IMG/VR virus record: IMGVR_UViG_2756170199_000003
Location: 1 to 64,000 of that record
Length of the DNA: 64,000 bases
Source of the DNA: a virus
Lineage: Duplodnaviria > Caudoviricetes
Reading direction: 5' to 3' (one strand)
In this document: in pieces, positions 12,174-21,342 of the stretch
How positions within the stretch are numbered: position 1 is the stretch's first letter
Layout of the letters: every line of letters starts with the position of its first letter
The notes under the pieces: generated by a model
What the model saw: only the letters and a program-made list of their open reading frames with translations
Told to the model about the DNA's origin: nothing
Databases searched by the model: none
Program-made: the position numbers and the translations under genes

Positions 12174-12227
12174 GCATAAGAGCCAGAGCGTCATCGCGCT
12201 CTGGCTCTTATGCCCTTTCTTTTTTTT
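12174..12227 (+). terminator. Intrinsic terminator
   Basis: Perfect 17-bp inverted repeat GCATAAGAGCCAGAGCG (12174-12190) / CGCTCTGGCTCTTATGC (12197-12213), followed by a long T tract, between convergent genes. Confidence 0.88.
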
Positions 12228-12234
12228 CACTTCC

Positions 12235-12759
12235 TCATCCCGACCCATCAGGTCCTTCACCATCTGATGGGTCGACTGGATTCGGGATCTCAGCCGGCAC
12301 GACGTTGAGCTTCACCCGCCCGCAAAACGCAAGTGACAGATGACTGGCCACGAGATACGCCACGTCTTCCTGCCCGTACACGCGGTTGTCAATGTCCTCC
12401 TTCTCGAGCTTTAGCCCTGACCACCGGTTAATCGCCGGCAGGATGCTCCAGACATCGAACGGGAAGCCTGGTACGGGAACCGCCTCATAGGCACGCAACG
12501 GACGAATCGATCCCAGATCAATACGCCGGTAAAAGAGCACCTTGCTTCCACTGAAACAGGGGTTTCCCCGGTCCGTCGGATGGATCGTGACAACTACTTT
12601 CATATCGCAACGCAGCGGGTCTATGCGACGAGGCTTCGTCGGCACCGGCCGCCCGAAACTCACACCCTGCTCAGGCAGCGCAAAACCTGAGGTAAACCAG
12701 ATCAGGTCGCGAAGGATCTCACGTGATGTTCTGCCATAGATGGAGAAAAGCGGTTTCAT
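12235..12759 (-). CDS. Putative virion/tail-associated protein (YRRIDL-type domain)
   Basis: ATG at 12759 after GAGGA. G...FYRRIDL...LPAIN...GL.L...DI and SLAFCG pattern is common in jumbo phage tail proteins; last gene of the fibre operon. Confidence 0.55.
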   Translation of the reverse strand: MKPLFSIYGRTSREILRDLIWFTSGFALPEQGVSFGRPVPTKPRRIDPLRCDMKVVVTIHPTDRGNPCFSGSKVLFYRRIDLGSIRPLRAYEAVPVPGFPFDVWSILPAINRWSGLKLEKEDIDNRVYGQEDVAYLVASHLSLAFCGRVKLNVVPAEIPNPVDPSDGEGPDGSG

Positions 12760-12769
12760 CGTCAGGTCC

Positions 12770-14674
12770 TCACGAAGCCGGCGGCTGGTTGTTGATATAT
12801 CCCAGTGGGGGCTGTGCACCCTGAGGTGAACCTACAATGTTGACGGCGTAGGATCGTGCCGACCCGGCCTGACCCACGGAACTGCTCCCGGCGTAGGCTG
12901 TGTAGAGGCCCGAACCCGTCTGCAGGAAACTGTCCGAATGCGCGTTGGACAGGGCGACGTTGTCTCCTATGGACGATGTGAATGTCATGCCATCGAGGCT
13001 GCCCTTGAGCACGTAGACCGTGATGATGCTGCCTGAGCGGAAGAAGCCCTGGATCTGTCCGCCACCGTTGACCGAGAAAAAGGGGAAGTTGCCTGTCACT
13101 GTGGTGTCGCCGCCGGATGACTGGAACCCGCCGAGGCTGGACAGACTGCGGGCAATGACGAGATTGCGGCCGAAATTTGCAGCCATTGCTCCGGAATAGT
13201 TCACGTCGAAGTATTGCGTGGTCGATTCCGTCACCGGATGGCCGCTCGCGTTGATCTGGGCCTGTGCATTGTTCAGATCTCCGGCCAGATTGTTCCATGG
13301 GCCTACGCACCCGATCCCCTGTGCGCTGACCTGGTGCGGATTGTTGAAGTTGTTGACGTGTCCAACCATGACCGCGTTGTTATTGTTGTAATACGCGAGC
13401 AGGCTCGAGAGCGCGTTGCTGACGGCTGAGTCGATCGCGGCACTCGCCATCCCGCTGATCGCGCCAATGCTATCCGCGTGCGGATTCGAAAGGTTTGCCG
13501 CATGTGCTGATACCGCGCTGGCCAGTGACTGCAACTGGGCGGCCGGCCAGGTTCCCAGTTGCGCCGGAGTCAGTTCGTGAGGATTTGCGGTGTTGCCGAT
13601 ATGGGTATTGAGCGTCGCGAGTGCGGCAGTCGCCCCGGACGTCACCGCATTGGCCGCTGCACTGATCGCTGCCGAGATGTCCGCGGCACTTAGTGTGCCA
13701 AGTTCGGCCGGCGTTGTCTGGTGTGGGTTACTGGTGTTGTTGATGTGCGCATTCATCGCGCTCACGTTCGATGCCAGCACGGCATTCACACCAGCCTGGG
13801 CAACGCTGATCTGGTTGTTCGCCTGCGCCACCGAATACATGTCAACCTGAACAAGCGTGGTCTGGTGCGGGTTGCCGTAGTCGGTAACGTGGTTCTCCAG
13901 CGTCTGATCGACATCGGCGTCGGCCGCAATGCGTGCAGCTGTCTCCACCGCAATGGCTGCATCCTGCTGGGGCTGGGTCAGCGCCTCAACCTGGGCCGGC
14001 GTAAGTTCGTGCGGATTGCCGCGATCGGCTTCGTGCGCGCTGAGCAGGTCGAGCTGGCCGTTGACTGCCTGCGTTTGCGTACTGTCCGCGCCGTCCGCAT
14101 ATGCTTTAACCTCGTCCTGCGAAATGGGATCGCCCATCAGCGCCAGCTGCTGAAGACGGTCGATCGCATGGACGACATACTCGAAGGTGATCAGCCCTTC
14201 CTGCCCCGCGTCATGCAGCGCCTGTGAGGGCGGCAGATTTACGACATCGTCGATAACCGACGGCCAGAGAGTCGGACGGGTATCCGGTTCGTAAGTCTGG
14301 ATTGCGTTGGCGATCGCGCTCTGGGGCGTCGCGTACTGTGCGCCAAGCGCCTGGTAATCGAGCCCGATCGCTGACGACACGTCCGGGTCCGTGATCACGA
14401 TGATCGAAACAATCTCTGTCGCGGCCCGTGAACCACTGGCCGCTCCATACTTCGCAGTCGCCAGATCCATGATCCCGGACAGGAAATACTGGGCGACGTT
14501 GAGCGGCTGACCGGTCGCCATGTCCCGCACGATGAGACTCGAGGCGTAAAATCCGCCATAGTCTGTTGCAATGGCCCGGATACCGGCGGATCCGATGGTG
14601 TAGTGTTCGTCGGTGATGTGATTCGATGGAGCGAGGCCTGTTGCGTCCAGTGGCAAAGTCATGACGTCCGACAT
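12770..14674 (-). CDS. Tail fibre-like protein (phiKZ gp131-135 family), six NPH repeats plus a C-terminal head domain
   Basis: N-terminal LPLDATG..N.I..E and YQALG motifs; six H-x5-NPH repeats; about 150-aa beta-rich C-terminus. Confidence 0.78.
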   Translation of the reverse strand: MSDVMTLPLDATGLAPSNHITDEHYTIGSAGIRAIATDYGGFYASSLIVRDMATGQPLNVAQYFLSGIMDLATAKYGAASGSRAATEIVSIIVITDPDVSSAIGLDYQALGAQYATPQSAIANAIQTYEPDTRPTLWPSVIDDVVNLPPSQALHDAGQEGLITFEYVVHAIDRLQQLALMGDPISQDEVKAYADGADSTQTQAVNGQLDLLSAHEADRGNPHELTPAQVEALTQPQQDAAIAVETAARIAADADVDQTLENHVTDYGNPHQTTLVQVDMYSVAQANNQISVAQAGVNAVLASNVSAMNAHINNTSNPHQTTPAELGTLSAADISAAISAAANAVTSGATAALATLNTHIGNTANPHELTPAQLGTWPAAQLQSLASAVSAHAANLSNPHADSIGAISGMASAAIDSAVSNALSSLLAYYNNNNAVMVGHVNNFNNPHQVSAQGIGCVGPWNNLAGDLNNAQAQINASGHPVTESTTQYFDVNYSGAMAANFGRNLVIARSLSSLGGFQSSGGDTTVTGNFPFFSVNGGGQIQGFFRSGSIITVYVLKGSLDGMTFTSSIGDNVALSNAHSDSFLQTGSGLYTAYAGSSSVGQAGSARSYAVNIVGSPQGAQPPLGYINNQPPAS

Positions 14675-14698
14675 GAAAAGTACTCCTGAACGTCGAGG

Positions 14699-16108
14699 TC
14701 AATGGTAAGAAAGGTTGTTGATGGCACCCTGCAACGCGGCCTGCCATTGCGCGTAGGTCCAGCCGCCGAGCATGGCGGGCGTAGTCCCATGCGGATTGTT
14801 GAAGTTGCCGGTGTGGCCGTTGATGGTGTTAGCCTGCGGCGTGAGGTACGAGTTGTTTCCGGGGTTGACCAGGTTGTTCGTGATGTTGCTGCTGATCTGG
14901 GCTGCGGTAAGCGTGCCTACCTGCGCCGCCGTCAACTGGTGCGGGTTGGCTGTGTTGCCGATATGGTTCGAGGCCTGGGTGTTGACCGTGCTGATGCTGC
15001 CGCTGTCCCAGCCGCTTATCTGGGAGAGCGTGGTCTGGTGCGGATTGCTGTAGTTGGTGATGTGACTGTTGAGTCCATCTTCAACCGACGTGAGCTGACT
15101 GGCCGCCGGCTGCATTGCCGTCGAGATCACGCTGTTGATCTGCGTGGTCGTGAGACCGTCGATCTGGGTGAGCGTCACTTCGTGTGGGTTGTTGGTATCG
15201 GCAGCGTGCCTGGCCATCGTGGCTGCGTCCTGCGCGAGCGTCGCGTCAAGGGCCGCCACAATCACGCCCAGGTTTGCATCCGCTTCCTCTGTTGTGTAGC
15301 CACCGACGAGCGCTGCGGTATCCACGTGAGGATTGGACCTGTTGGCCACATGCGTTGCGATGTTGCCAAGCAGCGTGCTGTCGCCCACCTCACGCGCGTT
15401 GCTCTGGTTCGCGATCAGTGCCGTAACCTGCGCGGCGGAATACATGTTGAGTTGCGCAAGCGTCGTCTGATGAGGGTTGCCGTAGTTCGTGATATGCGCC
15501 GAAAGCTGCTGCGCGAGATTGTCGATATCCCCGTTCCTCAGGCTGACCTGCTGGTCGACGAAGCTCAGCACCGCGTCATACGAGGCGGATTCGGCAAGAC
15601 TCACAATCCCCATCAGCATCTCGATTGCGGTGACAATGTAGTCCCAGTCATACGTGTCGCCGATCGCATGCAGATGCGGCACGGGCGCATAGGTATCGGG
15701 CCGGTTCGTGATGTTCTGGAAAGCGACGCCGCGCGTGTCGTCGGAAAGCGCTGTAATTGCGTCGGCAATTGCCGCAAGCGGCTGGCTGTAGTCGCCGCCC
15801 AGCGCCTGATAGGTGATGAGTACGTTCGGGCTCACGCCCGGATCGGTGATCACGATCACGGCATCGACTTCGTGACCGGTGAGCCGCGACGCGTGTTCGT
15901 GCAGGAACTGGAAGCGGTACTGCAGCGGCAACAGGGTCTGCTGCGTGAAGGCGTCCACCACCTGCACAGAAGCCGCAAAAAAGAGGCCCTGCAGGGGGGC
16001 GATCACACGTACCGGCATGGTCCCGATCGCATGGGGCTCGCCGGTCACGAAATTCCTGCGTCTTTGGCCCGACAGGTCGAGCTCGTAGCGATAGAGGTTG
16101 GGTATCAT
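14699..16108 (-). CDS. Tail fibre-like protein, six NPH repeats
   Basis: YELDLSG..N...E.H and YQALGG N-terminal domain; six H-x5-NPH repeats; no C-terminal domain. Confidence 0.78.
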   Translation of the reverse strand: MIPNLYRYELDLSGQRRRNFVTGEPHAIGTMPVRVIAPLQGLFFAASVQVVDAFTQQTLLPLQYRFQFLHEHASRLTGHEVDAVIVITDPGVSPNVLITYQALGGDYSQPLAAIADAITALSDDTRGVAFQNITNRPDTYAPVPHLHAIGDTYDWDYIVTAIEMLMGIVSLAESASYDAVLSFVDQQVSLRNGDIDNLAQQLSAHITNYGNPHQTTLAQLNMYSAAQVTALIANQSNAREVGDSTLLGNIATHVANRSNPHVDTAALVGGYTTEEADANLGVIVAALDATLAQDAATMARHAADTNNPHEVTLTQIDGLTTTQINSVISTAMQPAASQLTSVEDGLNSHITNYSNPHQTTLSQISGWDSGSISTVNTQASNHIGNTANPHQLTAAQVGTLTAAQISSNITNNLVNPGNNSYLTPQANTINGHTGNFNNPHGTTPAMLGGWTYAQWQAALQGAINNLSYH

Positions 16109-16165
16109 CGACGCCGCCTTTTCCTGCGAAATACTTGGGGCCAGGGCGCGTGTTGGCGCTGAAAC

Positions 16166-17620
16166 TCAGGGCAGCGCCGCGATGGCGTAGGCAGCCGTAC
16201 CGCCTGGCCCCTGCAACTGGTTGATTGCGTTCTGCAAGGCACCGGCCGAATAGCCGCCCGCGCCGGTATTGGCGAGCGTGTCCTGATGCGGATTGCTGTA
16301 GTTGCCTGTATGCGCCGAGATGTAGCCGTTCAGGGAATTCACATCGGCAACGATCTGGTTAAGGGCCGCGGCAATGTTGTTGTTGATGGTCGCGGACGCG
16401 TATGTACCGAGCTGCGCTACTGTCACCTGATGCGGATTGCTCAGGTTATTGACGTGCGAGGTGAGCGGATTGACGATGCTGTTCTGGATCGTCGTATAGG
16501 TCCACGTGCCAACGTTGGCCGCGCTATCCTGATGCGGATTGCTGGTGTTCGTGACGTGGTTGTTGACGGCTGTCGCAAGGCCTGCGGCCTGGGAGGCCGG
16601 CGCCGTGGCACCCGCAGTCGCCGCACTCGTGATCTGGCCGCTCGTGAGCGTGCCGATGTTCGCTGCGGTGTCCTGGTGCGGATTGCCGAAGTTGGCAAAG
16701 TGCGCGTTCTGCACGGCCTCCGTTGCCGTGATCGACTGCGTGAGCGCAGCCTGCATGGCTGCCATAGCCGAGTCCGACTGCGCTGTCGAATATCCACCGA
16801 TCTGGTTAGCCGTCACCTTGTGCGGATTACTGTGATCGGCGATATGGGCTTCGAGTGCAGCCTCGATTACCGCGTCGGCGGCCTGCTGGTTGCCGGTCTC
16901 AATGGCAATCGCCGCAGTGGTTTCCTGCGTCGTATAGCCACCGATCAGGTGCGCGGTATCCTGATGCGGATTGCCGAAATCAGTTTCGTGCGCGTTCAGC
17001 GCCGCAAGCGCGCCCGCGATTGAGTCCAGCACTTCGTTCACGCAGCTCTGCGCATAGGCCATCAGCTCACCCTGCGCCCCACCCTGGCCCTGCAGGAGCG
17101 ACGCACTGAGCCTCTGAAGCGCGACGACAATGTATTCAGTGCCGTAGATGTCTTCGGGAATATGAGGATGGTGTGGTGTCGGCGGATAGGCTGCCGGTTT
17201 GGCCGTCACGCCCGACCAGCTCACAGGACCATTGTTGATATGCAGGTTGTCGATTGCGATCTGCAGCGCACCGAGCGAGACGTTGTTCACGCCGCCCAAT
17301 GCCTGGTAGGTCACGCGCACCGTTTCGCTCACCGTCAGGTCGGTGATCAGCACAACCTCGTCGATTTCGCTGCCGCACCGCATGGATGCGGCAATGTCCA
17401 TCTGCATCGGGTAGTACTGCACGCCAGGCGTCAATGCCATGCCCGTGGCGTCGTCGATCACGATCAGCGAATCGCTGAAGTACAGGCCATAGTTGAGGGG
17501 AAACGCGCGGATGGCACGCAGGCCGATGACCTGGATCTCATCTTCGATGAGATTGCTCCTCGCGTGCCCGCCCGGATCGAAGGGCAGCGACACAGGGAGC
17601 GAAACCGGTGGAGTGGACAT
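16166..17620 (-). CDS. Tail fibre-like protein, six NPH repeats
   Basis: ATG at 17620 after GGAGGG; LPFDPGG..N.I..E and YQALGG; six H-x5-NPH repeats. Confidence 0.78.
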   Translation of the reverse strand: MSTPPVSLPVSLPFDPGGHARSNLIEDEIQVIGLRAIRAFPLNYGLYFSDSLIVIDDATGMALTPGVQYYPMQMDIAASMRCGSEIDEVVLITDLTVSETVRVTYQALGGVNNVSLGALQIAIDNLHINNGPVSWSGVTAKPAAYPPTPHHPHIPEDIYGTEYIVVALQRLSASLLQGQGGAQGELMAYAQSCVNEVLDSIAGALAALNAHETDFGNPHQDTAHLIGGYTTQETTAAIAIETGNQQAADAVIEAALEAHIADHSNPHKVTANQIGGYSTAQSDSAMAAMQAALTQSITATEAVQNAHFANFGNPHQDTAANIGTLTSGQITSAATAGATAPASQAAGLATAVNNHVTNTSNPHQDSAANVGTWTYTTIQNSIVNPLTSHVNNLSNPHQVTVAQLGTYASATINNNIAAALNQIVADVNSLNGYISAHTGNYSNPHQDTLANTGAGGYSAGALQNAINQLQGPGGTAAYAIAALP

Positions 17621-17733: not shown

Positions 17734-19983
17734 TTAAGCCGTAGCGCTGAGCGAACTGGAGAAGGTTTCAAATGCGAAGTACAGCTGGCTCACGAGGTTT
17801 GCCATCTCTGAGAGGGTCGCAAACTCGTCTGCTGTCCAGTACGTGATGCCCGCCGGCTCAACGCCAACCTGAACGACATTGCCGGAAAGCTGCGTCGTGT
17901 TTTCGGACAGCGAGGTCACGGACATCTGGTTGGTTTCACCTGGTGTCTTCATCCAGGCGGTGAGCACGGGTGCGCCCGGTGTCGTGGTGCTGTCAACGGT
18001 GAAGCCGAACGACACCGTGGTTATGTTGACGCCGTTCAGGCTCACCACGCTCAGCAGTGCATTGTTCGGTTGACCACTCGCCCTGACCGAAATACGCACC
18101 AGCCAGACTCCACTGCCGGTGTCGGTGGTCGCATCGCCTCCAGTGACAATCCATTGCACATCCGGAAACACGGTCTGCGTTTGCTCCGGGCCGGGCATCG
18201 CGACCTGCCCCAGTGGCGTCCAGACATTGGCGGCGCTGTTGGTGTTGGCGGCTATGGTTTCCTGCGCGGCAACGACCGCGCTGACGGCACTCACGGCGGT
18301 CTGGATCAGGGTGTTCGACGACATGCCGTTGAGCTCGGCGGCGTTCGCTGCCGTCCCCTGGAGAACCGCAGCCGCGAGCTGCGTCTGCGTCAGGCCGTAG
18401 ACAAGCGTGCTGTTGGCCGCTGTCCCCGAGAGAATGCTGGTCGTGAGCTCAGCGACCGACATGCCACCAAGCTGGTTGGCGTTTGCCGCAGTGCCAGCGA
18501 GAATCGCCGCCGTCAGCGCCGGCTGCGTGAGCCCATACGCGAGATTCGAATTGGCGACCGTCGCGTTGCTGATGTAGGTCTGCCAGTCCTCGGGCGACAT
18601 GCCGCCAAACATCGTTGCATCGCTCGCCGCGCCGCTCGCGACGTAGTTGAGCAGATCCTGCGGTGTCATGCCCCCGACCGTGCTCGCATTCGATGCGGTG
18701 CCCGCGAGGATCGAGGCCGAGAGCTCGCTGAGCGTCATCCCGTAGGCCAGCGTGCTGTCCGCCGCGGTTGCCGTGAGCGGCAGATAACCCTGCAGGAGGT
18801 TATTGACGTCGCCCGCTGTGACCGCGCCTACCTGCGCCGCAGTCACCTGGTGAGGGTTGTTGTAGTTCGTGATGTGGCTGTTCAGCTGCCCCATGGCGCC
18901 TGTCTGCGCAATGGCGGCCGCCGTCGCCGCGGGGGTCATGTAAAGCTCATCGCTGGTGCCTGCGATCGCATCAGCCGCGCTCGCGGTCGACAGATTGCGC
19001 ACATTGCCAAGCCCCACCTGAGCTGCGCTCACCTGGTGCGGATTGGTAAAGTCGAGCAGGTGCTGGTTGATCGTGATGCCAACCGTCCCGTTGATCGCCG
19101 CCGCGGTGGTAAGCGGCGTCATGTAAAGTGCGTTCGAGCTTCCGGCCACCCCGTCGGCTGCTGCGGCCACGCCGTAATTCCTGACATTGCCCAGCCCGAC
19201 CTGGGCCGCCGTTACCTGATGGGGATTGCTGGTGTTGCTGACGTGAATCTGGAACGGACCCAGCACCTGCGTCTGGATCGCGGCCGCGGTCGTCGCCGGC
19301 GTCATGTAGAGGGTGGTCGACGTGCCCGCCGCAGCATCGCTATTGGCTGCCACCGCATAGTTCTGGACGTTGCCGAGACCCACCTGTGCGGCAGTCACCA
19401 CGTGTGGATTGTCGTGATCAGCAATGTGCGCGGCCAGACCCGCCCCGCCCGTCTGCTGCAACGTGTCCTGGATGCCGGCGAGCGCAGCGACCACCGCGTC
19501 CATGCCCACCATATCGTACACATCCCAGGTGTGGGCTTCCGGCGGGAAGGCATAGGGTGTACCGCTGATTTCTTCCCACGACGTGACCCGCGCATTGTTC
19601 ATGCTGCCGGCCAGCATCTCGGCGATCGACGCCGCATCCAGCACCCAGATCCCGCCGATGGTCTGGTACCGAAGCTGCACCACTCCGGAGAGCGCGGTAT
19701 TGATAAAGCTGATGGAGCCATACACCCGCATGGCACAGGAGCGGCTCGCGGAGATGAACCAGTGCGTGCAGAAGTAGTCCGTACCCTCACGCAGCGTCGA
19801 GATCTGTCCGCTCGTATCCTTGAACAGGACCTGGAGTGTGTCGGCAAAATAAGGAGCGGCCGCCGGGATGATCAGGTGCTGATCGCGAAAGTTCTGCGCA
19901 ACCAGCACCTGCTGCTCTCCGGTGACCAGGTTCGAGGCGAGTGAGCCTGTCGGATCGAACGGGTACGAAGGCGTAGTGGACAT
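17734..19983 (-). CDS. Tail fibre-like protein (gp131-like) with two repeat types
   Basis: ATG at 19983; YPFDPTG and YQTIGG; four NPH repeats (61-62 aa period), about seven 23-aa repeats, C-terminal beta domain. Confidence 0.8.
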   Translation of the reverse strand: MSTTPSYPFDPTGSLASNLVTGEQQVLVAQNFRDQHLIIPAAAPYFADTLQVLFKDTSGQISTLREGTDYFCTHWFISASRSCAMRVYGSISFINTALSGVVQLRYQTIGGIWVLDAASIAEMLAGSMNNARVTSWEEISGTPYAFPPEAHTWDVYDMVGMDAVVAALAGIQDTLQQTGGAGLAAHIADHDNPHVVTAAQVGLGNVQNYAVAANSDAAAGTSTTLYMTPATTAAAIQTQVLGPFQIHVSNTSNPHQVTAAQVGLGNVRNYGVAAAADGVAGSSNALYMTPLTTAAAINGTVGITINQHLLDFTNPHQVSAAQVGLGNVRNLSTASAADAIAGTSDELYMTPAATAAAIAQTGAMGQLNSHITNYNNPHQVTAAQVGAVTAGDVNNLLQGYLPLTATAADSTLAYGMTLSELSASILAGTASNASTVGGMTPQDLLNYVASGAASDATMFGGMSPEDWQTYISNATVANSNLAYGLTQPALTAAILAGTAANANQLGGMSVAELTTSILSGTAANSTLVYGLTQTQLAAAVLQGTAANAAELNGMSSNTLIQTAVSAVSAVVAAQETIAANTNSAANVWTPLGQVAMPGPEQTQTVFPDVQWIVTGGDATTDTGSGVWLVRISVRASGQPNNALLSVVSLNGVNITTVSFGFTVDSTTTPGAPVLTAWMKTPGETNQMSVTSLSENTTQLSGNVVQVGVEPAGITYWTADEFATLSEMANLVSQLYFAFETFSSSLSATA

Positions 19984-20048: not shown

Positions 20049-20065
20049 CCATACGATTCGTATGG
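20049..20065. promoter_or_regulatory. Candidate bidirectional late promoter, CCATACGA-T-TCGTATGG
   Basis: Inverted repeat placing TATG on both strands between divergent structural genes; TATG is the phiKZ late promoter core. Confidence 0.45.
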
Positions 20066-20088: not shown

Positions 20089-21342
20089 ATGTACACGCTG
20101 GTATCTGCGTTCGGCAAGTCCCTGACCGAAGGGCAGGAATGGAGCGCCATCGACCTTTCAGGCATGACGTTTTCGACCATCATCCAGAATTACTCGAGCG
20201 TCTATGCCGTGCTCGCGAACCCCTTTCTCGATCACCCGGTGAGCCTGAGCCTCGCCAGTATCCTTGGCAGCGTCACCAGCCAGCAGCAGACCTTTGGCGA
20301 CTATCTCGCGGCACTCGGGGACGCGGCGCTTCCCACCTCAGACAGCATCCCGACGCTGGCCACCGCGTATGCCCGCTATCAGGACGCATTTCAGGCTGGC
20401 TACTCAATTGACCCGATCAGCCCCCGGGCATCGCTCTCGAGCCCGCTGCCTACTTCCGACAAGACCGATCTTTTTCTCACCCGGGCACGCACGGACTACG
20501 GGGCTTTCTACGGAAGCTGCATGGTGAGTGTGAATGGCTTTTTTCACCTGATCGACAGCGACCGGCAGACTGGCGTATGGGTGATCGACGGCATGAAATC
20601 CGTGATACACGCCAAAAAAAATAAGGTGGGCATTGTGGATTTTCAGGATCTGGGCACACTGACCCAGATCCCGATCACACAGGACATGATCTACAAACAG
20701 GTCGATACGCAGAATCTGGGCAACCACGCCTACCTGAACGTTGGCCAGGACCTGACGGGTTACACCGTGATGGTGGTGATAGGCGGATATCTGCACGTGC
20801 TCGATCCGAGGACCGTCACGCTGGTGGGCACCGACTCGATCATGATCGACTTCAACAACCTGCAGCTCTTCGAGCGCTATCACGAATCGAAGCGCTTCAT
20901 CAATCTTTCATCCCTGCCGCTGACGGTCTGGCCAGACAACCCTCATGCCTTTACGGTCAGCGAGATGATTTCCGATGCCTTCGTCGAGGCCCTGCTCACA
21001 CTCAGCCAGTCTTTTATCGTTCTGGTGGACAACACCGAGTTGTGGACGGAACTCGCGGGCGTGGAAACGCCGCGCTGGCCCAACGCCTATATCAGCTACG
21101 TCGAGCCCGTCTGGCCACTTATCACGAGCACGGGAAAAATAGCGGAATACTGGCCTGTCCCGGAGGACAGGCAGTGGTCGCTAAGGGTCGAGGACAACCT
21201 GAGGAACAACTTCATCTACCGGACAGTTGACGCGAAGAAGGAAACAGGGCTCACCTTCAACCGCAATCCCATGCACGCGGTAGATCTGAGCCCTGCATAT
21301 TTCCTGCAGATCGGTTGCGATATTGACTTTGCTGGTGGATGA
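20089..21342 (+). CDS. Virion structural protein (phiKZ gp130-like)
   Basis: Start MYTLVSA after GGGAG; SVNGFFH, VVIGGYLH and LSQSFIV motifs; divergent from the fibre cluster. Confidence 0.72.
   Translation: MYTLVSAFGKSLTEGQEWSAIDLSGMTFSTIIQNYSSVYAVLANPFLDHPVSLSLASILGSVTSQQQTFGDYLAALGDAALPTSDSIPTLATAYARYQDAFQAGYSIDPISPRASLSSPLPTSDKTDLFLTRARTDYGAFYGSCMVSVNGFFHLIDSDRQTGVWVIDGMKSVIHAKKNKVGIVDFQDLGTLTQIPITQDMIYKQVDTQNLGNHAYLNVGQDLTGYTVMVVIGGYLHVLDPRTVTLVGTDSIMIDFNNLQLFERYHESKRFINLSSLPLTVWPDNPHAFTVSEMISDAFVEALLTLSQSFIVLVDNTELWTELAGVETPRWPNAYISYVEPVWPLITSTGKIAEYWPVPEDRQWSLRVEDNLRNNFIYRTVDAKKETGLTFNRNPMHAVDLSPAYFLQIGCDIDFAGG

What the first reader, a model, noticed from the sequence alone, without database searches (positions are those of the whole stretch)
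12770..17620. Three adjacent fibre paralogues keep six His/NPH repeats in the same register: candidate heterotrimeric tail fibre with one tip-bearing chain
Seen (counted by hand): each protein has exactly six H-x5-NPH repeats. Spacings between repeat starts are 48,48,48,33,48 (12770-14674), 48,48,48,33,50 (14699-16108) and 48,48,48,34,48 (16166-17620). The short fourth interval carries a Trp at the same offset in all three (GTW, SGW, GTW), although the linker sequences are very different. Only the 12770 chain has an extra C-terminal domain of about 150 aa; the other two end soon after repeat six. Established: phage fibres are usually homotrimers, and His motifs can bind metal on the trimer axis. 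Inference: preserved register despite sequence divergence suggests the three chains co-assemble 1:1:1 into one asymmetric fibre with six His knots and one receptor-binding tip. Descent from a six-repeat ancestor is the alternative explanation.
Basis: partly seen in the sequence, partly recalled or inferred. Interest (0 to 1): 0.8.

Follow-up and report, generated by a model that had tools for sequence, protein, structure and literature searches.

The report
Jumbo-phage baseplate fibre gene quartet
These are four, not three, neighbouring genes for the baseplate fibres of a phiKZ-like giant phage of Paraburkholderia; three of them look built to form one mixed three-chain shaft with a single tip, an idea recently proposed for phiKZ but still unproven.

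Summary
A (12770-14674), B (14699-16108) and C (16166-17620), all on the minus strand, each carry six H-x5-NPH motifs at the stated spacings.

The quartet is the counterpart of phiKZ gp131 + gp133/134/135, next to a gp130 homologue. A 2026 cryo-EM atlas proposes a candidate fibre base of gp131x3 + gp133 + gp134 + gp135 for phiKZ. By analogy, D3 + A:B:C is my best reading (about 50%).

In favour:
- About 57 orthologues keep both His of every knot and the same register.
- B and C never have a tip.
- The nearest single-copy relatives carry a homotrimer chaperone domain (Peptidase_S74) that the trio lacks.
- In 34 genomes with NPH shafts this gene is present once or three times, never twice.
- The triplication probably arose separately from the one in phiKZ.

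Against:
- The register is inherited.
- D is just as invariant within the clade.
- Shaft lengths also co-vary between the two separate fibre genes of two-gene phages.
- More distant jumbo phages have paralogues of unequal length.
- Multimer folding was not available for this window.

The scan has already filed gp131-135 clusters on other genomes as known.

The parts
20089..21342 (+). Homologue of phiKZ gp130, the platform under which the fibres dock. The ORF opens at 20062; the similarity starts at the Met at 20089.
   Evidence: BLASTP against phiKZ gp130: 29% identity over 428 aa, E 5e-61. phrog_3337, E 2e-104. Transcribed divergently from D, as gp130 is from gp131.
17734..19983 (-). D: gp131-type (first-type) fibre protein, 749 aa. 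It has an N-terminal docking domain, four H-x5-NPH knots 61-62 aa apart, then about 30-aa repeats and a C-terminal beta-rich domain.
   Evidence: phrog_2163 E 1e-113 and phrog_13857 E 3e-95. Motifs at 186, 247, 308, 370. Falls in the gp131-type clade, support 100. Orthologues of 747-763 aa all show 61, 61, 62.
16166..17620 (-). C: second-type fibre protein, 484 aa, six knots (48, 48, 48, 34, 48), ends 47 aa after the start of the last motif, no tip.
   Evidence: 18 orthologues keep six knots (alignment A5). An 8-aa insertion in one subclade lies in the loop after knot 5.
14699..16108 (-). B: second-type fibre protein, 469 aa, six knots (48, 48, 48, 33, 50), ends 37 aa after the start of the last motif, no tip.
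   Evidence: 23 sequences of 467-469 aa align in 469 columns, i.e. the alignment is no longer than the window protein, down to 49% identity (alignment A4).
12770..14674 (-). A: second-type fibre protein, 634 aa, six knots (48, 48, 48, 33, 48), plus a tip domain of about 180 aa (residues 455-634, DNA 12773-13312).
   Evidence: The tip domain is 47-80% identical across the 13 database relatives found with it. Some orthologues add a Hint-like C-terminal module.
13334..17017 (-). The 18 H-x5-NPH knots of A, B and C. First base of each His codon (minus strand): A 14035, 13891, 13747, 13603, 13504, 13360; B 15496, 15352, 15208, 15064, 14965, 14815; C 16990, 16846, 16702, 16558, 16456, 16312.
   Evidence: Six-frame motif scan. 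Both His are invariant in every knot of the orthologues; the only lapses are N to D or N to I.
12238..12759 (-). DUF7941 protein, 174 aa, last gene of the same transcription direction; the family is proposed to sit on the peripheral baseplate.
   Evidence: Pfam PF25613, E 1.2e-7, 31.9 bits against a cut-off of 27. The same family lies near the fibre genes in L088-L090. Its role is described in the Goslar paper, PMC13742148.
12174..12213 (.). 18-bp perfect hairpin between convergent genes; likely the terminator that ends the D-C-B-A-DUF7941 unit.
   Evidence: Terminator scan. No terminator-like site on the minus strand between the four fibre genes.

Best explanation
The region encodes the baseplate fibre set of a phiKZ-like jumbo phage whose relatives are found in Paraburkholderia and Caballeronia assemblies.

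All four proteins start with the gp131-like docking domain of about 180 aa, which attaches fibres under the gp130 platform. D is the gp131-type chain and most likely forms a homotrimer with its own distal domain. A, B and C are three diverged copies (30-36% identity) of the second fibre gene.

The most likely arrangement is one copy each of A, B and C in a single three-chain shaft. That shaft would alternate helices of about 31 aa with loops of about 17 aa holding N-P-H. Each of its six knots would bring together six invariant histidines, two per chain. B and C stop just after knot six, and only A continues into the tip of about 180 aa.

Together with D3 this would give the six docking domains per fibre site that are seen in phiKZ.

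Shown here: gene anatomy, homology, synteny and conservation. Inferred: 1:1:1 co-assembly, the hexamer, the helical shaft (from a low-confidence model) and any metal binding.
For: 1. Synteny and homology with phiKZ gp130/gp131/gp133-135. The phiKZ atlas reports six gp131-like N-domains and a six-helix bundle at each of 12 fibre sites, and proposes gp131x3 + gp133 + gp134 + gp135 (PMC13250141).
2. phiKZ gp131-135 all lack transposon insertions, so each is needed (bioRxiv 10.1101/2025.11.23.690004).
3. B and C have no tip in any of about 40 orthologues, while A always has one.
4. Both His of all 18 knots are invariant. Length changes are confined to loops.
5. The nearest single-copy relatives (L088, FLC9, L089, L090) carry Peptidase_S74, a homotrimer folding chaperone. 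A, B and C have lost it.
6. In 34 genomes with NPH shafts, the second-type gene is present once (20 genomes) or three times (14), never two or four times. Whole-record searches confirm exactly 2 or exactly 4 docking-domain genes.
7. The window trio falls in a clade (support 98/89) with single-copy genes and without the phiKZ trio, so three copies probably arose twice.
8. Symmetry (inference): three kinds of homotrimer cannot fill two classes of six sites evenly, whereas 12 A:B:C trimers can.
Against:
- The register is inherited. D keeps 61, 61, 62 just as strictly across the clade, so constancy within the clade is not specific to the trio.
- In two-gene phages the shaft spans of the two separate fibre genes correlate (Spearman 0.93, n = 20, not corrected for phylogeny). 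Length matching therefore does not require being in one trimer.
- More distant jumbo phages have 2-4 docking-domain paralogues of very unequal length: Simmy50 420 and 1163 aa; JN03 412 to 1742 aa. Those must form separate fibres.
- Independence of the two triplications is favoured but not proven (p-AU 0.067).
- The phiKZ assignment is itself a candidate model fitted at about 4.5 A.
- Homotrimers are the rule for phage fibres.
Confidence: 0.5

Rival explanations
1. A, B and C each form their own homotrimer. Each trimer pairs with a D trimer at different fibre sites. Equal knot number and register are inherited from the six-knot ancestor. They are kept because all fibres on one baseplate must have the same reach. 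B3 and C3 would be tip-less struts, or would bind receptors through their short ends.
For: Homotrimers are the norm. Unit-by-unit comparison shows positional descent. D is equally invariant. The shaft spans of the two fibre genes (first-type and second-type) co-vary between separate genes. Distant jumbo phages carry paralogues of unequal length on the same docking domain. Earlier scan notes read SPN3US-like paralogues as separate fibres with different tips.
Against: Tip-less B and C are conserved in every orthologue. The S74 homotrimer chaperone has been lost. There are three kinds of trimer for two classes of site (PMC13250141). The copy number is 1 or 3 in the NPH-shaft group. Every phiKZ paralogue is essential.
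Confidence: 0.33
2. The three chains mix without fixed order, giving any combination of A, B and C in a trimer. The result would be a population of fibres with zero to three tips.
For: All three share the same register and the same invariant knot residues. Nothing seen here enforces a specific order.
Against: The three orthologue groups have been kept distinct, each with its own conserved residues, down to about 50% identity. They sit on long separate stems in the tree. That pattern fits fixed, different roles.
Confidence: 0.1
3. B and C are not parts of the finished fibre. They would be assembly helpers or scaffolds that template folding of A and then leave.
For: They lack a tip. The family's usual built-in chaperone (S74) is missing from the trio.
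Against: They keep the full docking domain of about 180 aa that anchors fibres to the baseplate (phrog_2163, E 1e-61 to 1e-74). The phiKZ counterparts are virion proteins fitted into the map (PMC13250141).
Confidence: 0.05

Closest known systems
phiKZ gp131 / gp133 / gp134 / gp135 baseplate fibre paralogues (Sycheva et al. 2012; structural atlas PMC13250141, 2026)
   Same: Same docking domain, same gene order next to a gp130 homologue, and one long gp131-type gene plus three shorter paralogues carrying NPH motifs in a common register. In phiKZ the NPH positions are 212/273, 215/279 and 211/274.
   Different: The phiKZ trio has two knots 61-64 aa apart, and each chain has its own C-terminal domain of about 180 aa. 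Here there are six knots in 48-aa units and only one chain has a tip. There is no gp132-like mini-gene. The tree places the two trios apart, so the triplications are probably independent.
Two-gene fibre sets of Goslar, Ralstonia RP12, Burkholderia FLC9 and Xanthomonas RTH11
   Same: The same two ancient gene types (split supported at 100). The first-type gene is adjacent to and divergent from the gp130 homologue in the sets whose annotation was read. Shafts are made of NPH knots.
   Different: There is a single second-type gene with 2-10 knots. In the nearest relatives it carries a C-terminal Peptidase_S74 chaperone. It is therefore presumably a plain homotrimer.
T4 fibritin-type segmented coiled-coil fibres
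   Same: The monomer model of B shows helices of about 31 aa broken by regular loops, like the segmented three-stranded coiled coil of fibritin. The comparison with fibritin rests on my own knowledge.
   Different: No sequence relation. The model has low confidence (pLDDT 54). Fibritin is a homotrimer without His/NPH loops.
His-metal sites on the axis of T4 gp37 and gp12 fibres (HxH motifs)
   Same: Regularly spaced invariant histidines, two per chain per site, would give six ligands per trimer. This rests on my own knowledge of T4 gp37.
   Different: The motif is H-x5-N-P-H, not HxH. No structure or metal data exist. PDB sequence searches found nothing.

Membership tests
phiKZ gp131-family baseplate fibre proteins | N-terminal gp131-like docking domain of about 180 aa | tested here: met
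   phrog_2163: E 5e-60 (A), 7e-74 (B), 2e-61 (C), 1e-113 (D). An HMM built from the window and phiKZ N-domains recovers all of them.
phiKZ gp131-family baseplate fibre proteins | Gene cluster next to, and divergent from, a gp130 homologue | tested here: met
   Window 20089-21342 against phiKZ gp130: E 5e-61. The layout is as in phiKZ.
phiKZ gp131-family baseplate fibre proteins | Location at the periphery of the baseplate in the virion | not testable with these tools
   Needs virion proteomics or cryo-EM of this phage.
phiKZ-type hetero-hexameric fibre base (gp131x3 + gp133 + gp134 + gp135) | One gp131-type gene plus exactly three second-type paralogues | tested here: met
   D plus C, B and A. 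There are no further copies in the 138.9-kb record. The same layout is seen in 6 relatives.
phiKZ-type hetero-hexameric fibre base (gp131x3 + gp133 + gp134 + gp135) | One-to-one orthology of the three chains with gp133, gp134 and gp135 | tested here: not met
   The window trio groups with single-copy genes (support 98/89) and excludes the phiKZ trio. Forcing both trios together costs 26 lnL units, p-AU 0.067.
phiKZ-type hetero-hexameric fibre base (gp131x3 + gp133 + gp134 + gp135) | Physical 3:1:1:1 assembly | not testable with these tools
There are no deposited chains for gp133-135.
Peptidase_S74 (intramolecular chaperone) homotrimeric fibres | C-terminal S74 domain | tested here: not met
   No Pfam hit in A-D. 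The domain is present in the nearest single-copy relatives: L088 E 7e-10, FLC9 E 9e-13.
HxH metal-site fibres (T4 gp37/gp12 type) | HxH motif and an axial metal | tested here: not met
   The motif here is H-x5-NPH. Metal binding cannot be tested.
Segmented trimeric coiled coil (fibritin-like) | Helical segments with heptad cores separated by loops | tested here: inconclusive
   The AF2 monomer model of B has helices at 225-255, 273-303, 321-351, 369-384 and 402-434 with loops at the NPH motifs, but mean pLDDT is only 54.

The most novel reading that the evidence does not exclude
A homotrimeric phage fibre was turned into an obligate A:B:C heterotrimer by gene triplication, and this happened twice independently in phiKZ-like jumbo phages. 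In this lineage the result would be a segmented three-chain shaft pinned by six clusters of six histidines, ending in a single-chain, monomeric receptor-binding tip. That would be an asymmetric fibre unlike the three-fold symmetric tips of all characterised phage fibres.
Probability: 0.35. Interest if true: 0.8.

Novelty: new variant of a known kind. Interest (0 to 1): 0.55.

Why it matters
Phage fibres are textbook homotrimers. A fibre made of three different chains with one tip would change how receptor-binding proteins are recognised in genomes, modelled and engineered.

The phiKZ atlas could only propose such a mixed fibre from a map of about 4.5 A. This clade offers a cleaner test case, because two of the three chains have no tip and the homotrimer chaperone has been lost.

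A probable second, independent triplication would argue that the three copies correspond to the three positions of a trimer, rather than serving host-range diversification.

The invariant H-x5-NPH knot is widespread in jumbo-phage fibres. It matched no Pfam family, and no solved structure matched these proteins by sequence.

Tried and rejected
Nothing was folded, so ABC could not be compared with AAA, BBB or CCC.
- AF2 monomer of the A tip (residues 430-634): pLDDT 59. A Foldseek search of the PDB gave only generic Ig-like noise, best E 0.06, so the fold is not assigned.
- PDB sequence searches with D, B and phiKZ gp133 found nothing. Only the gp131 C-domain (4GBF) is held.
- Pfam gave nothing above threshold for A-D.
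- Megablast of the region against GenBank phages gave no match.
- A search with an alignment of N-domains only was rejected as too diverged.
- Literature searches for 'NPH motif' in tail fibres found nothing.
- The supplement of the phiKZ atlas (copy numbers) is not held.
- I first took the C-terminus of A to be swapped between relatives. The alignment showed the tip is conserved, and the length difference comes from an added Hint-like module.
- I first took the rule 'one or three copies, never two' to be general. More distant jumbo phages break it.
- Apparent loss of knot 2 in some B and C orthologues is only N to D or N to I; both His are kept.
- I considered a core-packing (volume compensation) test on the helices and dropped it, because the heptad register cannot be fixed from a low-confidence monomer model.
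Full report
**What is there.** The minus strand of 12.2-20.0 kb carries five genes in a row, with no terminator-like site between the four fibre genes and an 18-bp hairpin at 12174-12213 after the last gene. In order of transcription they are D (17734-19983, 749 aa), C (16166-17620, 484 aa), B (14699-16108, 469 aa), A (12770-14674, 634 aa) and a 174-aa DUF7941 protein (12238-12759; Pfam E 1.2e-7). A homologue of phiKZ gp130 is transcribed divergently from D at 20089-21342 (29% identity, E 5e-61).

**The observation.** Trp lies 18 residues after the fourth His in all three. A six-frame scan of the whole window finds the motif 22 times, and all 22 are in these four genes.

**Identity.** Pfam has no family for A-D. 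PHROGs place the first 180 aa or so in phrog_2163 and the rest in tail-fibre families. tblastn finds relatives below 37% identity only in phiKZ-like jumbo phages.
- phiKZ has the same layout: gp130 divergent, then gp131 (771 aa), gp132 (110 aa), gp133, gp134 and gp135 (462, 457 and 463 aa).
- Orthologues of A, B and C sit on contigs of 275-286 kb, and one of 493 kb, in Paraburkholderia assemblies, and on a 144-kb contig in a Caballeronia assembly. That is the likely host range.
- The window's own record is a 139-kb fragment, about 52% complete.

**What the literature says.** The phiKZ structural atlas (PMC13250141) reports twelve peripheral fibres. Each docks under gp130 through six gp131-like N-domains and a six-helix bundle. 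The authors give a 'candidate' composition of gp131x3 + gp133 + gp134 + gp135, built from AF3 models fitted at about 4.4-4.6 A. A transposon screen found no insertions in gp131-135 (bioRxiv 10.1101/2025.11.23.690004). The Goslar paper states that the peripheral baseplate and fibres are still largely unmodelled (PMC13742148). Applied here, it would read D3 + A:B:C.

**Comparative census.** I collected 69 loci from IMG/VR, 20 GenBank phage regions and 3 assembly loci. I then marked docking-domain genes with an HMM and counted knots.
- Six relatives of the window (A 50-78% identical) all have the same quartet: D with 4 knots, and C, B and A with 6 each.
- Database orthologues extend this to roughly 17 A, 23 B and 18 C sequences.
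- Both His of every knot are invariant. The only lapses are N to D or N to I.
- B is 467-469 aa in all 23 sequences; its alignment has 469 columns, no more than the window protein itself.
- The +8 aa that gives C a 56-aa fifth interval in one subclade is a loop insertion right after the NPH of knot 5. The helix length is unchanged.
- A always carries the tip; B and C never do.
- phiKZ-like genomes have a gp131-type gene plus three genes of about 450 aa, each with two knots in a common register.
- Twenty other genomes have one gp131-type gene and one second-type gene, with 2 to 10 knots.
- Whole-record searches confirm exactly two or exactly four docking-domain genes in complete genomes.

**Phylogeny.** The docking domains split into a gp131-type clade and a second-type clade (support 100).
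- A, B and C lie in a clade (UFBoot 98 / SH-aLRT 89) with single-copy genes of RP12, FLC9, L088 and others, and without phiKZ gp133-135.
- Monophyly of the window trio is not rejected (p-AU 0.34).
- Forcing both trios into one clade costs 26 log-likelihood units (p-AU 0.067).
- Two separate triplications are therefore favoured but not proven.
- The nearest single-copy relatives have 48- or 37-aa units and end in Peptidase_S74, the chaperone that folds homotrimeric fibres. The trio has lost it.

**Structure.** A monomer AF2 model of B has low confidence (pLDDT 54) but a clear pattern: helices of about 31 aa (16 aa in the short unit) separated by loops of about 17 aa that contain N-P-H, with the first His at the end of each helix. 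This suggests a segmented coiled-coil shaft. The A tip models as a beta-rich domain (pLDDT 59) with no convincing match in the PDB. Whether the six His per knot meet on the axis and bind a metal cannot be judged without a trimer model.

**Weighing the heterotrimer.**

For:
- the phiKZ model and the essentiality of each phiKZ paralogue;
- B and C conserved without a tip;
- loss of S74;
- one or three copies, never two, in the 34 NPH-shaft genomes;
- probable convergence on three copies;
- the symmetry argument that three kinds of homotrimer cannot fill two classes of six sites.

Against:
- The register is inherited. Repeat units partly match by index (A and C units 1-3).
- D is equally invariant, so constancy within the clade says nothing specific about the trio.
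- Only the stems after the triplication are informative, and they are too short for a strong test.
- In two-gene phages the shaft spans of the two separate genes correlate at rho 0.93 (not phylogenetically corrected). Length matching can therefore act between separate trimers.
- Following a lead from earlier scan notes, I found that more distant jumbo phages have unequal paralogues on the same docking domain: Erwinia Simmy50 328 + 420 + 1163 aa; Pseudomonas MIZ-Pa99 247 + 1184 + 1193 aa; Salmonella JN03 1237 + 1376 + 1742 + 412 aa. The family can clearly also carry separate fibres.

I put the A:B:C trimer at about 0.5, separate homotrimers at about 0.33, and the rest on mixed trimers or helper roles.

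**Novelty.** The gene family and the cluster are known, and this scan has filed them as known on other genomes. New here are:
- a distinct variant, with six 48-aa knots, a single tip-bearing chain and loss of S74;
- the probable independent triplication;
- the family-wide co-variation of shaft lengths.

Noticed in passing
L004:10001-12517, L005:10001-12502, L006:9992-12475, L008:9977-12520 (orthologues of window A); window A ends at 12770: About half of the A orthologues (827-848 aa) carry an extra C-terminal module of about 200 aa after a Pro/Gly linker. It begins with Cys-Cys-Phe and gives sub-threshold Hint-domain hits (Hom_end_hint E 5.6e-5, Vint 0.004). It looks like a self-cleaving, monomeric Hint/BIL-type domain on a fibre tip. 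The window's A stops exactly before the linker.
   Followed up: partly
window 12238-12759 (-): The gene after A is a DUF7941 protein. The Goslar paper proposes that this family forms filaments on the peripheral baseplate. It lies next to the fibre genes here and in relatives L088-L090.
   Followed up: partly
20 two-gene genomes, e.g. L009-L018, L078-L090: Across two-gene jumbo phages, the knot number and shaft span of the gp131-type gene and of the second fibre gene rise and fall together: 2/2, 5/3, 5/4, 6/5, 7/5, 14/10 (Spearman 0.93). This suggests the two trimers run side by side in one composite fibre.
   Followed up: partly
window 17734-18850 (C-terminal half of D): After its four knots, D has about five or six tandem units of about 30 aa, then a beta-rich C-terminal domain of about 190 aa with no family match. 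This is probably the main receptor-binding end.
   Followed up: no
whole record (G000, 138,880 bp): IMG/VR labels the record a provirus. However, its relatives are free-standing contigs of 275-286 kb in isolate assemblies of Paraburkholderia, which looks more like a carried or co-cultured lytic jumbo phage than an integrated prophage.
   Followed up: no
L091 (Erwinia phage Simmy50), L092 (Salmonella phage JN03), L093 (Pseudomonas phage MIZ-Pa99): More distant jumbo phages carry 3-4 genes with the same docking domain, but with very unequal lengths (247 to 1742 aa) and almost no NPH knots. This is a different use of the same anchor.
   Followed up: partly
window 12174-12213: A perfect 18-bp inverted repeat with a 4-nt loop lies between convergent genes. 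It is a likely bidirectional terminator.
   Followed up: no
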